From Glycera tridactyla (Eukaryota): a DNA stretch of 64,000 bases. Of this stretch, positions 7,501 to 28,711 are shown piece after piece. The DNA lies in the NCBI GenBank assembly GCA_965644265.1, contig OZ286467.1:63240001-63304000 (forward strand), given 5' to 3'. A program made the position numbers. Position 1 is the first letter of the stretch, and each line of letters starts with the position of its first letter.

Positions 7501-10500
7501 TAGTATTCGAAAGTGATAATATATGGCCAATGAATGGGTCGAGTTGGGAATCACTTCGAAGAAAGTGGGTTCAAGTCTCCGATGATTGTGGAGTTGGTTT
7601 GAAGTTGATAGGTAATAATTGGATACAATGCTTGAGGATCCTTCGAACCTTTTGATTCTTCATGTTCTTAGAGATGTGTATTTCTGATAGGGGAGAATAG
7701 CTATCTGGTTCGAGAGTCAGTCACCAGCCATATACATAGTCAAATATGCCGTCAATAGTTCCTATATTTACAACCTTTCTGATCAATCAACATCTTATGT
7801 TCAGAAATCGTGATAGTGATGCCTGCAGGAAAGTTACCATGTATTTTTATTGAACAGAAACACATGGCCTGCATACTTTTGCGGGGTGATACATGCCTAT
7901 AAACCTTAACCAAAGCCAAACATTTAGTCAATGATCACATCATCATCTGGCATTGAATGAAAGCGAGAGCATATACATGGTCTTCTGGATAAAAAAACAA
8001 ACTAGCAAGTGGTAGCAAAGATCTATCTGTTAGTGATTCCGCCAAGGAGAGGCTAGTTCACTTCAGTGTACAAACTTTCATTGTACATCACGTGTCTGGT
8101 CTTAACGGGACCTAGTTTGGACTTCATCACGACACAAAGCTTTCCTCATCCTCGGGGACAGCGTAATTATATACTGAAAAAATGTGAAAGTAGTGCCCGC
8201 TTATGGCTTGCCTGTAGAATTCGTAGATATATAAACAACATCTTCAACGAAGCAGTGTATCTCGGGCCATGGGAATCTCACCTACAGCATGCATGTTTTG
8301 ATTCATCTCACAAGAATTGAACAGCGTAATGTTGGGGTGACATACCCCATCAGCGCTAAACCTACATGAATTCCAATATTCAGTTCTCCATCGTCTTAGT
8401 GAAGCAGAGTGCGTACCTCCTCAACTGGAGAATCTGACATCACATTGTACTGGCACACTAGAAATACAGAATTTTTCGAGGTGTTCTGTCACCGCTGCTG
8501 CATCCAAACATAATACGTTAGTTGTGCCATAGGGGAACCAATTCCAGCTGAAGTGATAATTTTCAAAGCTTCCTTCGTATAATTATTCAAACACCCCTCC
8601 AACCGCATGGAGTATTGCCGGCATGTATGTGAGATTGTACTCCGCGGATCCCGTGATGTGAGAGAGGCAACGTCACGCTCGAGTGAACTCCTCTCTCAGC
8701 CGGCGTTCTCGTTCTCGTTTTGTGACGTCAGGATTCACTTGTGAGGAGGATAGCATGGAGGAGCAGTACTTCGCTGACCGCTTACCAGATGGCGTGACAG
8801 TCAAATATGGCGAACGATCGGACGTCCCTGAGGATGTTCTTATAAACGAAGATGCTGACAACAATGACAACAGGCGATTAGATGTCACCTGCGATACGAC
8901 CTTGCTCATTGCAGATACCAGGTTAGTCCATACGGCTAAATGAGGTTTTATCGACTGTTGCGTACCCATCTGGTATGTCTGACACGTCTCCTCTGATAGC
9001 CCTTTACGCTGTGGTCACCAAAGTGGTCCATCTGCCCCATTGCAATATGTATACCTATGTAATTTGCTTATATGCATATACATGAATGCATATGTATGTG
9101 TTCATCACATGTATGTATGAGCATATGTGCATACAACGCTTATGTCCCGCACTCAATTTCCACGTCATTCTCCTGCAACCTGTTCATATTTGTTCGCTTC
9201 TTTCGTACAAATGTTCTTCACTCGAATGGGGACGACATAGTATTCTAGACCTTCCCGAGGCAGAATAAAGCATTTTCATATCAAATCGAAGCTAATCAAA
9301 ACAGATATATACATTCAAGACAAAATTGAATCCACTCAGTGACGTTGGAATCATTCAATGACATAGGAAACAATCAATGACATCAGAACTCTCATTTTGT
9401 TAGATAAATCCCAAAATGACGAGAAATATCCACTGACCCACCTATATCTATTTTCTACTGGAAGAATATCTCTGTCAAGTCTTGACTGTCATCTGCCAGC
9501 TATGCATTGATGACAGCTGTGATGGTGGGTAGCTCATGCTTCTTTCAGTGGTTTGAACTCAAAAATTGATGAGTGCAGTTACACGGAACAGTGTAATTAG
9601 GCCACTTTATACATCTGTTGAGGACTAGTAAACTAGTCTTGTGATCCGCTGTACTGAATCAGTGATCTACTGTGCTGATTTAGTAAGCTACTAGAATCAT
9701 CGAGCATACTGGGATGCCATACTGATTGTTCAAATTTGATTGTATACAATAGATACTGTATATTGGGATAGCCCAAGCATACTGCACATGCTCATTTTTG
9801 CTGCCAACAGGATTGGAGTAACAACATTGAAGCGACTGGAAGTGGTGGTCTGGGGCATGACTTCACTCAGTTTCCGCCTCACTGACTCCGCTGGAGAACA
9901 GATGCTGGAACAGGTGAGTTAGTACTGTGAACATCAATATGTGTTTCCTTTCCTCGACTATACTCTGTCCAACGAGTGAAGACCTCAAGGGGCGGTCTCA
10001 TATTCTTCTAGATAGATAGATAGACGGATATACCTTTATTTTATAACGAAAAAAGTACACTTACTGCCAGGAGCAGCCATCTCCAGTACTTCGTTGGTGA
10101 CAGATCGTAATGGGTTAGTAGCAGCACAACATAAAAAAAATGAATAAAAATAAAATAGGCATGTATCAAAGTAAGGGTTATGAGATCACTTCCTATATCG
10201 AGATATATATTCAGGCAGGTAATGTGGTTATAAGATCTTTTTCTAATTCAGCTAAATAATATAAGGAAATAATGAATATTTGAAGTCAGGAGTTTCGAAA
10301 ACTACTACACGTATCTCTATAATCAATTAAATGGAGCATTATAACATTGTATATCTATCTAAAAAACTACAAGCTACAACTGCAACAAGACAACACAATC
10401 ACGTTTCTATCAGGTAAACATAAATACTTCACCGTTATACCATGTGGTATACCTTCTGGGCCACGTGACAGATCAGCTGTCAAACTTTAGTCAGTCAGAG

Positions 10501-26100: not shown

Positions 26101-28711
26101 GCTGTGTACATCCTGTGGTTCTATCTGTTCCCTTTCCGAAATGTGATTTTAATTTTACCTCCCAATGAAAGGTATCAGGTATCATGTATGAGGTCAGTCA
26201 TGTGTGTGGTTCACGTATTTATCACATGAGATGATGGCTAAAAGGGTGATATTGGCAGAAAAGTGGCTTTATCACGGCTATGTGATGAAGAATTCCGTAT
26301 CACAGGCTCAGGTGATACGGATTCAGATTCCATCCTAGCTATCTGCGCATGCGTCGTCGTCATCAAAACAACAATGTGAACAACACCAGCAGGCGTAGAT
26401 TGAGATGTTTTCAAACTTCAACATTGCTGAATTTCACTGTTTAAATGCTTTCAATGTTTAAATGACGATATGATGTGATAAGAACAGAACGAAATGCGTA
26501 TGTGACACTCGAGCTGGGATCGGGGAGCGGGCGACGTAGCACCTCTCGAGCGCAACGCGCTCTCGCGGTTCGCGGTGCTACTGCAGCCCACTCGCCGATC
26601 CCAGCTCTCGTATCACAAACACATGTCGTTCTGTCTATTTCATTGGTTTCGATGATTTTGAAGTGGTTTTCCTCTCTCTCATCACGATATCCCTGTTGCC
26701 GTTATTTACAGTAACCTGGTTTCCATCTGAGAATAATTCTGTTTCGTCCAAGTCGACAGATCCTTGGCCCCATGAATATCCTTTCGTTTTACTGAATCAT
26801 TGGTTGCTGCAAATGTGGAGAATCAGTCTGTCTTCTCGATTTTCTCGCTCTTTCGCCACAGTGCTGTTCTTTTGGCGTTTGTTTGGTGCTGGCCCATGAT
26901 TTTCCAGATGGCTTTCTCATGCTTTTGCATGACTAATTCAAGATTCAGGATTCAAGATTCAAAACTGTTTATTGCATATGTTTACAACGTATTGACACAA
27001 GATCAAGTGGTCGTATTATGCGCAAATGCATACAATTCATCAATCAATAATCAGATAAAGATCCATCATTTACATAGTATTTGCAAGATCATGGCAATTT
27101 ATACACACACACATGCTCACCAACACGCACGCACACACACAGACAGTATAATGCTAACTGATATAAGATGGGTAAAGACAATCATATAAGCCACGACAGC
27201 AACTGTTGAAGAAATGATGATAAGATATATCGAAGAAAAGTTTTGAGGAGTGAAACCGCCCTCCCGGCGGATCCGGTCGTAACTAATTGATGGTTCTTGT
27301 GTCTCTGTCATCTTGTAGGTCATTGGTAGTGGGTCATCACCTCCTACATTCACCTCTTGCTAGCTGATTATGGCAGACCTAACCTCGGGCTTGGTCTTCT
27401 GGCGGGAGTTATGGCGTAATTTCTCCCGGTCCGTGATGAGCTTGTGCTTGAATATTTTGCACTTTGCAACCTATTGTGTAATCATCAGTTTACACTCTTG
27501 GGAGGCTGCGCTGTCACGTTTTTGAATAATGTCGGACGGTTTTTAAAGAGGCTTGGGATCATCTTTGTCATCCTTGGCCTCTTTGTAGAGCCTTTCAGTG
27601 ATAGCTTCCATGGTATCCTTTGCTCGGTCGGCCCAGAGATTGGCATCTTAAGCAGAAGTTATCCCTATCTGGGATTCAGCTCGGCCACTGTTCGAAGTCT
27701 CGAGCGTATGCCAGAACCATATCTTCAGATCTCATTCTTCGCAGATGTGCTGTATATAGTGGAGCTTGCTTGCTCAGGGTCATTCCTCAGCGGGTTGTCC
27801 GCACAGTGCACACCGCCCTTTTCGAGATGGTGATTTCGCATTCAGGTGGTGCCTGCAACTTACAATCAACAGTCCGAACTTTCTTGACGGTTGCTTACAA
27901 AAGTTGTGGTGGAGTTTGGTAGGGCACCGCGTTGGACAAAGGTTTTTATGCCCGCTTTGTTTTTTTCCACCATGGAGCTACAGTCTTCGAATTTAGCACT
28001 CTCCCAAATCCCAGGGAGAGTGAATTTGATTTCGGGAGAGTGAAACTTCCAACTCACTGTCCCGAAGGGAGAGTGGAAATTTTTCAGTTGATGTGAGAGT
28101 GATGGATTTTCTATGAAGACAGAACACCACAATTTTGAGTACACGAACAATAATCCCTAGTCCCTGAGAGAGTGAATTCATTCTCGGGAGAGTGATTTTC
28201 TTAATCAGTTCCCCCGATGGGAGAGTGGCTGAAAAAGTTTTTCGTGAAGACTGGAGCTACCAGGTACCCTTTAGGTGTTTGTTTTTGGCGGGTACAGACA
28301 AGCCCGAGCTTATTCATATTCAGAGGTTGAGCGGCTTCTGTATAGCTCATGAGACATGGGAAGCGTGATGCGTTGGCCTCAGATCTTTCCCGTGCATCAC
28401 AGATATTCGAAAATCGCAAGTTCGAGCATGGCTGATCAAAACCGATGAACCTTGTACTCTGAGCTAGGTTGATCAGCGGGTCGCCATAGACACCAAGTGA
28501 CAACAAATATATATATTTTTTGCAGGGCGAGCCAACTGACCTGTCATCGTTCGAGTCCACAGGAATTATCCCAATCGATCCAAGTAACATGTGGCAAATC
28601 ATCCACATTATATTGGTCCCTGGTGGAGGATGTCTCCCAGCTGTCGAAAATCTTCGTCTGAATATACCATGTCCAGAAACAAGTAAGTTTGCCCAACTAT
28701 GATTGTCAACA

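What the first reader, a model, noticed from the sequence alone, without database searches (positions are those of the whole stretch)
8732..28682. Three paralogous, unassigned ~142-150 aa Cys-bounded domains between mucin stalks
Seen: domains 1 and 2 share exact exon sizes (190/103/157 nt), four Cys and motifs such as VTCDT.L.I, TTLKRL.V...G.TSL.FRL.D and I.Q.VVQVC.TP. Domain 3 (269+157 nt) is far more diverged but keeps the (W/V).CD motif, the phase-0 intron and the 157-nt last exon. Each domain is a phase 1-1 module, so it can be shuffled or skipped. Inference: the alternating hydrophobic pattern and terminal Cys suggest a beta-sandwich, possibly a remote discoidin/F5-8 type C or galactose-binding-like fold. 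I do not recognise a named family.
[Added by the scan's program, not by the reader: the finding's places include an assembly gap (unread letters, written N; its length is only estimated) at 14247 to 14672, 20749 to 20882, 23260 to 23434. Whether the letters on both sides are continuous or in frame is not known: test that first.]
Basis: partly seen in the sequence, partly recalled or inferred. Interest (0 to 1): 0.65.

Follow-up and report, generated by a model that had tools for sequence, protein, structure and literature searches.

The report
Two paralogous orphan domains in micro-exon mucin gene
Two neighbouring 150-residue, four-cysteine protein modules of no recognisable family sit inside a very large mucin-like gene of an unidentified invertebrate-type genome, while the proposed third copy shares only its exon layout and not its sequence.

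Summary
Domains 1 and 2 are real and clearly paralogous. Both have three exons of 190/103/157 nt with AG/GT borders, the same intron phases and the same split Arg codon. Identity is 44/67/51% per exon (E 1e-16 to 1e-19). Synonymous sites are saturated (pS 0.76) while pN is 0.29, and DNA similarity is confined to the exons.

Domain 3 exists as two open, spliceable exons, and its 157-nt last exon is robust. It shows no sequence similarity to domains 1 and 2 in BLASTP, tblastn, shuffle tests or hhalign. Its first exon has two equally good in-phase donors (269 or 296 nt). Its intron holds an assembly gap.

All three gaps fall in inferred introns. Only the first can be cross-checked, against domain 1.

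Searched exon by exon, nothing known matched: Pfam, PDB sequences, the ESM Atlas and prokaryotic contigs gave no real match. A profile of the last exon against 1.84 billion proteins gave only spurious repeat hits.

The spliced domains were not joined, searched or folded, so the beta-sandwich/discoidin idea remains untested. Fragment folds were low-confidence.

The flanking "stalk" is real and unusual. It consists of 56 candidate phase 1-1 micro-exons, 50 of them 21-27 nt and six 72-75 nt, all on the + strand and none on the minus strand.

The parts
8732..8921 (+). Domain 1, exon 1 (190 nt, phase 1 -> 2; Cys at residues 3 and 53 of the in-frame translation; acidic stretch followed by VTCDTTLLI)
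   Evidence: AG acceptor and GT donor, open frame; 44% identical to D2 exon 1, E 1e-16
9811..9913 (+). Domain 1, exon 2 (103 nt, phase 2 -> 0; TTLKRLEVVVWGMTSLSFRLTD)
   Evidence: 67% identical to D2 exon 2, E 2e-15; the split codon with exon 1 reads AGG, Arg
12394..12550 (+). Domain 1, exon 3 (157 nt, phase 0 -> 1; Cys at 32 and 48; FIKQAVVQVCHTP)
   Evidence: 51% identical to D2 exon 3, E 1e-19
13954..14143 (+). Domain 2, exon 1 (190 nt; one N-x-T sequon at residue 50)
14247..14672 (.). Assembly gap 1, inside domain 2 intron 1 (intron 14144-14804)
   Evidence: Exon order, sizes and the split Arg codon (AGA) across the gap match domain 1
14805..14907 (+). Domain 2, exon 2 (103 nt)
16864..17020 (+). 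Domain 2, exon 3 (157 nt)
20707..20727 (+). Linker micro-exon (21 nt, phase 1-1, QATTEA), 21 nt upstream of gap 2
20749..20882 (.). Assembly gap 2, in the interval between domains 2 and 3; it may hide further micro-exons
21290..21310 (+). Linker micro-exon (21 nt, phase 1-1, RATTEA)
22620..22888 (+). Module 3, first exon (269 nt, phase 1 -> 0; Cys at 2, 36, 66, 68). An alternative in-phase donor at 22915 would give 296 nt
   Evidence: No similarity to D1/D2 exons. The 3' end plus donor is duplicated at about 22992-23050
23260..23434 (.). Assembly gap 3, inside the inferred 5.6-kb intron of module 3
   Evidence: No independent check of the join
28526..28682 (+). Module 3, last exon (157 nt, phase 0 -> 1; Cys at 36 and 49)
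   Evidence: Best acceptor (pyrimidine tract then cag) and best donor (CAA|GTAAGT, 8 of 9) in its open frame. No similarity to D1/D2 exon 3
6759..6782 (+). Last clear stalk micro-exon upstream of domain 1 (24 nt, APAPATT)
   Evidence: The split codon with D1 exon 1 reads GGA, Gly
30164..30187 (+). First stalk micro-exon downstream of module 3 (24 nt, AKAAVTT)
   Evidence: The split codon with the module 3 last exon reads ACA, Thr

Best explanation
The window holds part of one very large + strand gene of a non-human, invertebrate-type eukaryote. Its Ala/Pro/Thr-rich, mucin-like stalk is spelled out by arrays of 21-27-nt phase 1-1 micro-exons.

Two adjacent copies of a 150-residue, four-cysteine globular module (D1, D2) are inserted in this stalk. 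They arose by an old tandem duplication and are kept by purifying selection. I found no relative of them in any library searched, so they are best described as a lineage-restricted, so far unclassified extracellular domain.

A third Cys-bounded module of 142 residues (D3) follows after a short micro-exon linker. It shares the 157-nt phase 0->1 terminal exon and cysteines next to both module ends, but no detectable sequence. It is either an extremely diverged relative or a different module.

Inferred mechanism, not shown here:
- The modules are disulfide-stabilised, mostly beta-structured knobs held out on an O-glycosylated stalk.
- They act as binding or cross-linking sites for carbohydrate, matrix or a like molecule.
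- Every exon unit is phase 1-1, so whole modules or stalk units can be duplicated or skipped without breaking the frame.
For: **Exons and paralogy (shown)**
- The exon borders, sizes and phases are as stated.
- D1 and D2 are similar in all three exons without gaps: E 1e-16, 2e-15 and 1e-19.
- The shuffle control for D1 exon 3 against D2 exon 3 gave 0 of 2000 shuffles reaching the observed score.

**Purifying selection (shown)**
- Over the three exon pairs, pS is 0.764 (saturated) against pN 0.293.
- In blastn of the D1 locus against the D2 locus, the two best matches are exon 2 and exon 3, and exon 1 matches weakly. Introns gave only short, low-scoring matches.

**One continuous reading frame (shown)**
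- A chain of 20 exons from 255 to 32006 keeps consistent phases, and none of the 16 split codons is a stop.
- The same scan found 56 candidate A/P/T-rich phase 1-1 micro-exons on the + strand and 0 on the minus strand.

**Extracellular character (inferred)**
- Cysteine numbers are even: 4, 4 and 6. There is one N-x-S/T sequon each in D2 exon 1 and D3 exon 1. The Thr/Pro-rich flanks fit a secreted or surface protein.

**No known family (shown, exon by exon)**
- Pfam: 0 families for 8 of 8 exon translations at E <= 10.
- PDB sequences: no hit below E 0.4 in 5 searches.
- ESM Atlas: nothing usable for 2 of 2 queries.
- Word-index search of longer proteins: none for D1 exon 1 or D3 exon 1.
- HMMER profile of exon 3 against 1.84 billion representatives: 5 hits. 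All are repetitive proteins matched by many partial stretches, the best single stretch scoring 10.1 bits.
- Prokaryotic contigs: none.
Against: - No transcript evidence was available, so every splice junction is inferred.
- The fold is not established.
  - The spliced domain was not folded.
  - AlphaFold2 on single-exon pieces gave mean pLDDT 44.9 (D3 first exon; six strands, no helix) and 53.3 (exon 3 profile; no secondary structure assigned).
  - Hydrophobic period-2 signal beat shuffles clearly in only 2 of 8 pieces: D2 exon 1, 10/1000, and D2 exon 2, 25/1000. The other six gave 167-512/1000.
- Exon-by-exon searching with 34-89-residue queries is much less sensitive than a 150-residue domain search. 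Only exon 3 was run against the full HMMER library. A remote known family is therefore not excluded.
- The protein libraries seem to lack this organism. There was no self-hit for exon 3, and the best hit to the window's retroelement RT was only 61% identical. Close relatives in unannotated animal genomes would have been missed.
- No binding or adhesion function was tested.
Confidence: 0.6

Rival explanations
1. All three modules are homologous. They are very diverged members of a known jelly-roll / beta-sandwich superfamily (discoidin F5/8 type C, MAM or another galactose-binding-like domain). They would then work as lectin-like or adhesion domains.
For: - Module size is 142-150 residues, with cysteines within 2-3 residues of the start and 3-4 residues of the end.
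- The C-terminal hydrophobic strand ends in Cys...VVQVC in D1/D2 and ...LNIPC in D3.
- The 157-nt phase 0->1 last exon is shared by all three.
- There is a weak 8-column hhalign match, GMTSLSFR to SFTSIQFE, E 0.16.
- The low-confidence model of the D3 first exon is all-beta.
- The resemblance to discoidin and MAM termini is recalled from memory, not tested.
Against: - Pfam found no F5_F8_type_C, MAM or any other family in 8 of 8 exon translations. PDB sequence searches found nothing.
- D3 shows no similarity to D1/D2 above shuffles in 12 of 12 tests. hhalign probabilities were below 1%.
- The fold could not be tested because the spliced domain was not folded.
Confidence: 0.25
2. Module 3 is not a single domain of the stated form. 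Its two exons may belong to different units, or further exons may lie in gap 3 or in the 5.6-kb intron. The first exon may also end elsewhere, or it may be a chance or repeat-derived open frame.
For: - There is no paralogue or homologue to show selection on D3.
- The inferred intron holds an assembly gap (23260-23434). Its minus strand carries open frames that look like retroelement remnants (the motif is recalled; Pfam gave 0 families).
- Two equal in-phase donors exist, at 22888 and 22915. The exon's 3' end and donor are locally duplicated.
- A 196-codon antisense open frame overlaps the last exon.
Against: - The phases fit exactly between the flanking phase-1 micro-exons.
- The last exon has the strongest splice signals in its frame and exactly the D1/D2 size.
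- The number of Cys is even (6), and they lie next to both ends.
- The antisense frame matched no Pfam family.
Confidence: 0.25
3. The modules are SEA-like or CysD-like domains, the globular units already known to interrupt the O-glycosylated stalks of animal mucins.
For: The context is the same: globular modules of about 110-150 residues inside a Thr/Pro-rich stalk. That SEA and CysD domains occupy such positions is recalled knowledge.
Against: - Pfam gave no SEA or other family in any exon.
- There are four Cys per module, against about ten in CysD (recalled).
- No helix was predicted in the one fragment model that had secondary structure (low confidence).
Confidence: 0.07
4. The exons are relics of a dead gene, or are not expressed.
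For: No expression data were available. The locus is heavily invaded by repeats and retroelements.
Against: - All 8 module exons and the 12 flanking micro-exons checked are open with intact AG/GT borders and consistent phases.
- pN is far below the saturated pS between D1 and D2.
Confidence: 0.05

Closest known systems
Discoidin / coagulation factor 5/8 type C domain (Pfam PF00754) and other galactose-binding-like jelly rolls such as MAM
   Same: About 150 residues in an extracellular setting. Cysteines lie close to both termini, and the final hydrophobic strand ends in Cys. The comparison with the family is recalled.
   Different: No Pfam match in any of the 8 exon translations. The fold was not tested. 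No family signature could be aligned.
SEA domains of membrane mucins (for example the many SEA units of MUC16) and CysD domains of gel-forming mucins
   Same: Globular modules that interrupt heavily O-glycosylated stalks. They occur as repeated paralogues within one gene (recalled knowledge).
   Different: No Pfam hit. There are four Cys rather than about ten (CysD). No helices appear in the only fragment model with secondary structure (low confidence).
Micro-exon genes (MEGs) of schistosomes
   Same: Runs of very short symmetrical exons whose lengths are multiples of three. Seen only as search listings and abstract starts (PMC5825161, PMC4671649) and otherwise recalled.
   Different: - Here there are 56 candidate micro-exons of mostly 24 nt. 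They encode a repetitive APxxATT stalk and sit in units of about 5 kb that recur along the window.
- They belong to a gene that spans at least the whole 64-kb window and also carries 150-residue globular modules. MEGs encode small secreted proteins (recalled).
Phase 1-1 extracellular modules spread by exon shuffling (EGF, Ig, FN3 and similar; Patthy's rule, recalled)
   Same: Each module, and each micro-exon, starts and ends in phase 1.
   Different: Each module here is itself split by one or two internal introns (phases 2 and 0). It has not been seen in any other gene.

Membership tests
Discoidin / F5/8 type C (PF00754) | Significant match to the family profile | tested here: not met
   hmmscan against Pfam-A gave 0 families at E <= 10 for 8 of 8 exon translations. 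The search was exon by exon, so sensitivity is reduced.
Discoidin / F5/8 type C (PF00754) | Eight-stranded distorted jelly-roll beta-barrel fold | tested here: inconclusive
   Only single-exon fragments were folded, giving pLDDT 44.9 and 53.3. The spliced domain was not folded. No fold search was run, because the models were too poor.
Discoidin / F5/8 type C (PF00754) | Disulfide linking the N- and C-terminal cysteines | not testable with these tools
   Cysteines are present 3 residues from the start and 4-5 residues from the end of D1 and D2. Their pairing is unknown.
MAM domain (PF00629) | Significant match to the family profile | tested here: not met
   0 families.
SEA domain (PF01390) | Significant match to the family profile; alpha/beta sandwich | tested here: not met
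   0 families. The one fragment model with secondary structure has strands only (low confidence).
Mucin-type (PTS) stalk | Long, repetitive Pro/Thr/Ser-rich sequence flanking the globular modules | tested here: met
   - The scan found 56 candidate + strand micro-exons encoding APxxATT-type octapeptides, plus Glu-rich exons of 72-75 nt. The minus strand gave 0.
- The stalk is Ala/Pro/Thr-rich with almost no Ser.
- O-glycosylation itself is not testable here.
   - D1-D2: met.
- D3 against D1/D2: not met. BLASTP gave E 14 or no alignment. In the shuffle tests, 151-1497 of 2000 shuffles reached the observed score. hhalign probability was below 1%.
   The last exon is 157 nt and phase 0->1 in all three, and robustly bounded. 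The first intron is absent in D3, and the length of D3's first exon is ambiguous at 269 or 296 nt.

The most novel reading that the evidence does not exclude
D1 and D2, and perhaps D3 as a far-diverged member, define a new lineage-restricted extracellular domain family with no sequence-detectable relatives. It is carried by a giant gene that builds its mucin-like stalk from more than fifty 24-nt phase 1-1 micro-exons arranged in repeat units of about 5 kb. I found no description of such a gene architecture: one search returned 0 papers and one search returned only schistosome and Drosophila papers.
Probability: 0.35. Interest if true: 0.6.

Novelty: new variant of a known kind. Interest (0 to 1): 0.4.

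Why it matters
**If the modules are a new domain family.** They would add a third kind of globular unit, besides SEA and CysD, that animals place inside glycosylated stalks. They would also give a handle on what such stalk proteins bind in this lineage.

**The gene architecture.** Every unit is phase 1-1, and the stalk is made of tiny exons in tandemly duplicated genomic units. This is a clean natural example of how exon duplication and skipping could tune the length and module content of a surface or secreted protein.

**If HHpred or a fold search places the domain in a known beta-sandwich family.** The finding then becomes an ordinary, diverged lectin-like module.

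Tried and rejected
- **Phage collection.** blastn of D1 exon 1 found no match. This was an uninformative choice of collection.
- **Word-index protein searches.** I searched for longer proteins with D1 exon 1 and D3 exon 1 and found none. 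Only proteins up to 2000 residues were searched, so a giant mucin would be missed.
- **Third protein search.** I used it on the retroelement RT to try to place the organism. The best hit was 61% identical, so the organism stays unidentified. I did not follow the unnamed hits.
- **HMMER profile of exon 3 against 1.84 billion representatives**.
  - It returned five hits with E 8e-7 to 8e-4. I rejected all of them as spurious after re-scoring.
  - All are 1221-3886-residue repetitive Ser/Thr/Ala/Asp-rich proteins matched by 13-20 partial stretches each. No single stretch scored above 10.1 bits.
  - None matched the exon 1 profile.
- **ESM Atlas.** D3 exon 1 and D1 exon 3 gave nothing usable.
- **Other window-wide searches.** The Rfam and tRNA scans found nothing. 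Prokaryotic genome contigs searched with the exon 1 profile gave none.
- **AlphaFold2 on single-exon pieces**. The models were too low in confidence to use, so I ran no fold search.
- **Co-folding the three D1/D2 exon peptides as three separate chains**. The verdict was "no answer" (score 0.00). This is neither support nor evidence against.
- **Hydrophobic-moment test for beta periodicity**. It was clear in only 2 of 8 pieces, so it does not carry the fold claim.
- **Pfam on open frames inside the introns and on the antisense frame over the D3 last exon.** It gave 0 families. The retroelement reading of the 24.3-26 kb and 11.1-11.4 kb frames rests on recalled motifs only.
- **Literature searches**. 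No paper described this architecture. I saw listings and abstract starts only and read no paper.
- **Closed or not on hand.** Metagenome and viral contig collections, and any eukaryotic genome collection.

Full report
**Scope and limits**

The spliced 142-150-residue models were not assembled, searched or folded. This is the main limit on what can be said about family and fold. No N stretch was filled or looked up.

I do not take the contig for human. It carries an intact-looking DIRS-type retroelement and a gene architecture unlike vertebrate genes, and no tool flagged it. The organism could not be identified. The best database relative of the window's retroelement reverse transcriptase is only 61% identical. 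Rfam and tRNA scans found nothing.

**1. The observation: domains 1 and 2**

A scan for AG...GT-bounded open exons of the stated sizes recovered exactly one solution per exon:

| Domain | Exon 1 (190 nt) | Exon 2 (103 nt) | Exon 3 (157 nt) |
|---|---|---|---|
| D1 | 8732-8921 | 9811-9913 | 12394-12550 |
| D2 | 13954-14143 | 14805-14907 | 16864-17020 |

- Phases run 1 -> 2 -> 0 -> 1 in both. Each module is therefore 450 nt, or 150 codons, and is phase 1-1.
- The codon split by intron 1 is Arg in both copies, AGG in D1 and AGA in D2.
- BLASTP of the exon translations, all without gaps:
  - exon 1: 27/61 identical, E 1e-16;
  - exon 2: 22/33 identical, E 2e-15;
  - exon 3: 26/51 identical, E 1e-19.
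- A Nei-Gojobori count over the three exon pairs gives pS 0.764, which is saturated, against pN 0.293.
- In blastn of the two loci, the two best matches are exon 2 and exon 3, and exon 1 matches weakly. Introns gave only short, low-scoring matches.
- D1 and D2 are therefore old tandem paralogues under purifying selection in this frame. This part of the finding is far beyond chance.

**2. The observation: domain 3**

- The exons 22620-22888 (269 nt) and 28526-28682 (157 nt) are open and fit the phases 1 -> 0 -> 1.
- The last exon is well defined. Its acceptor (pyrimidine tract then cag) and donor (CAA|GTAAGT, 8 of 9 consensus positions) are the best in its frame.
- The first exon is less certain.
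  - An equally scoring in-phase donor at 22915 would make it 296 nt.
  - Its last 20 or so bases, together with the donor, are repeated about 126 nt downstream.
- D3 is not detectably similar to D1 or D2.
  - BLASTP gave E 14, or no alignment.
  - tblastn of all eight exon peptides against the window gave only self hits and D1-D2 hits.
  - In twelve local and global shuffle tests, 151 to 1497 of 2000 shuffles reached the observed score. The D1-D2 control gave 0 of 2000.
  - hhalign of the D1/D2 exon profiles against the D3 exons gave probabilities below 1%. The only aligned stretch was 8 columns, GMTSLSFR to SFTSIQFE, E 0.16.
- What D3 does share:
  - the exact size and phases of the last exon;
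  - a Cys 2-3 residues from the module start;
  - two Cys in the last exon, the final one 3-4 residues from the end.
- I take these shared features as suggestive of a common origin, at roughly even odds, but not as proof. This is inference.

**3. The assembly gaps**

All three gaps lie in inferred introns and none lies in an exon. Frame is carried across them by splice phase, not by the estimated gap length.

- **Gap 1 (14247-14672)** is in D2 intron 1. The two sides are supported as adjacent and co-oriented, because D1 shows the same exon 1 -> exon 2 succession, sizes and split Arg codon.
- **Gap 2 (20749-20882)** starts 21 nt after a linker micro-exon.
- **Gap 3 (23260-23434)** is in the 5.6-kb D3 intron.
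- Neither gap 2 nor gap 3 has an internal control, so missing exons there cannot be excluded.

**4. Context**

The modules belong to one + strand gene that runs across the whole window.

- A scan for short phase 1-1 exons found 56 candidates on the + strand and 0 on the minus strand. The criteria were a pyrimidine-rich acceptor, a donor matching at least 7 of 9 consensus positions, an open frame, and at least 80% A/P/T/S/V/G/E.
- Of the 56, 50 are 21-27 nt, most of them 24 nt, and encode APAVATT, APGAPTT, PAATTA and similar. Six exons of 72-75 nt encode LTPFAGGEELTTT(A/E)...EEEE.FTT.
- From about 31 kb to 55 kb they recur in the same order every 4.1-5.1 kb, and again at 63 kb beyond a retroelement insertion.
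- A chain of 20 exons from 255 to 32006 is frame-consistent, and none of the 16 split codons is a stop.
- The "mucin stalks" are therefore real, and they flank the module trio. Two micro-exons link D2 to D3. I found no convincing stalk exon between D1 and D2, so these two probably abut, with a split Ser codon.

**5. What it is**

Nothing known matched when searched exon by exon.

- Pfam gave 0 families for 8 of 8 exon translations at E <= 10.
- Five PDB sequence searches gave no hit below E 0.4.
- The ESM Atlas gave nothing usable for 2 of 2 queries.
- Word-index searches for longer proteins found none, though only proteins up to 2000 residues were searched.
  - It gave 5 hits with E 8e-7 to 8e-4.
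  - On re-scoring, all five proved to be long repetitive proteins matched by 13-20 partial stretches. The best single stretch scored 10.1 bits, and none matched the exon 1 profile.
  - I reject all five.
- There was not even a self-hit, so this gene is not in that library.
- Prokaryotic contigs gave nothing.
- The unassigned status is therefore supported, with two caveats.
  - Queries of 34-89 residues are weak.
  - Exons 1 and 2 and the D3 exons were not run against the full library.

**6. Fold and mechanism**

The fold is open.

- AlphaFold2 on the D3 first exon alone gave six strands and no helix, but mean pLDDT was 44.9.
- The exon 3 profile gave pLDDT 53.3 and no assigned secondary structure.
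- I ran no fold search on such models.
- The invariant D1/D2 positions show i, i+2 spacing in several stretches: L49 V51 C53 T55 L57 I59 in exon 1, and L19 F21 L23 in exon 2.
- The hydrophobic-moment test beat shuffles clearly only for D2 exon 1 (10/1000) and D2 exon 2 (25/1000). The other six pieces gave 167-512/1000.

My best reading is inferred rather than shown.

- The modules are extracellular, disulfide-stabilised, mainly beta-structured knobs on an O-glycosylated stalk, serving as binding or cross-linking sites.
- The even Cys counts, one N-x-S/T sequon each in D2 and D3 and the Thr/Pro-rich flanks support an extracellular setting.
- A conserved acidic stretch in exon 1 (E39, D40 and following) is a lead for cation binding and no more than that.
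- Uniform phase 1-1 units mean that modules and stalk exons can be duplicated or skipped in frame. The link to exon shuffling is established knowledge, recalled here.

**7. Comparison with what is known**

- The modules work like the globular interruptions of mucin stalks, namely SEA and CysD domains. By size and terminal cysteines they also resemble discoidin/MAM-type jelly rolls.
- Every membership feature I could test was not met or was inconclusive.
- The stalk resembles schistosome micro-exon genes only in having tiny symmetrical exons. I saw those papers only as listings and abstract starts.
- My searches found no paper on arrays of 21-24-nt exons. One search returned 0 papers and one search returned nothing relevant.

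**8. Verdict**

- Two of the three domains form a solid, selected, unclassified paralogous pair. The third is a plausible but unproven relative.
- Novelty is moderate. Orphan extracellular domains are common in invertebrate genomes, and a full-length profile or fold search may still place this one in a known superfamily.
- The surrounding micro-exon architecture is the more unusual feature.

Noticed in passing
window 255-2447, 6759-6782, 30164-54341, 63193-63691 (+ strand): A scan found 56 candidate phase 1-1 micro-exons on the + strand and 0 on the minus strand with the same criteria. Fifty are 21-27 nt, mostly 24 nt, encoding APxxATT; six are Glu-rich exons of 72-75 nt. They recur in the same order every 4.1-5.1 kb. 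The stalk of a giant gene seems to be built from tandemly duplicated micro-exon units.
   Followed up: partly
window 55977-61754 (- strand): A large retroelement sits inside an intron of the stalk array. It has three long overlapping open frames of 996, 715 and 928 codons. Pfam found RVT_1 (E 1.5e-25), weak RNase H hits and a weak Dam-methylase-like hit. This fits a DIRS-type element (recalled). The best database relative is 61% identical.
   Followed up: partly
window 4717-6398: A minisatellite of 62-nt units, 27 copies at 96% matches, lies in the intron between the micro-exons at 2447 and 6759.
   Followed up: no
window 22866-22925 and 22992-23050: The last 20 or so bases of the module 3 first exon, its donor and about 35 nt of intron are duplicated about 126 nt downstream. 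Each copy runs into a (TA)n tract. This bears on where that exon really ends.
   Followed up: partly
window 24294-26079 (- strand): A run of short minus-strand open frames lies inside the module 3 intron. By recalled motifs they look like remnants of a Penelope-like or other retroelement (a Cys-rich ...IIHCITCKKY... stretch and ...KADKGSSMVVM...). Pfam gave 0 families.
   Followed up: partly
window 11136-11384 (+ strand): An open frame in domain 1 intron 2 contains ...VPQGSISGLSLFNLHINL..., which recalls the conserved block of non-LTR reverse transcriptases. Pfam gave no hit.
   Followed up: no
window 16186-16585 and 17089-17681: A 200-nt unit is present twice (96% matches) in domain 2 intron 2. 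A 41/83-nt tandem array starts 69 nt after the donor of domain 2 exon 3.
   Followed up: no
window 28201-28791 (- strand): A 196-codon antisense open frame overlaps the module 3 last exon and runs through a (CTG)n microsatellite at about 28716-28756. It matched no Pfam family and is probably chance.
   Followed up: partly
window 8848-8878 and 14070-14100 (exon 1 of D1 and D2): A conserved acidic stretch (E39, D40, then D/N-rich residues up to R47) lies just before the VTCDT strand. It could be a cation-binding loop. This is untested.
   Followed up: no
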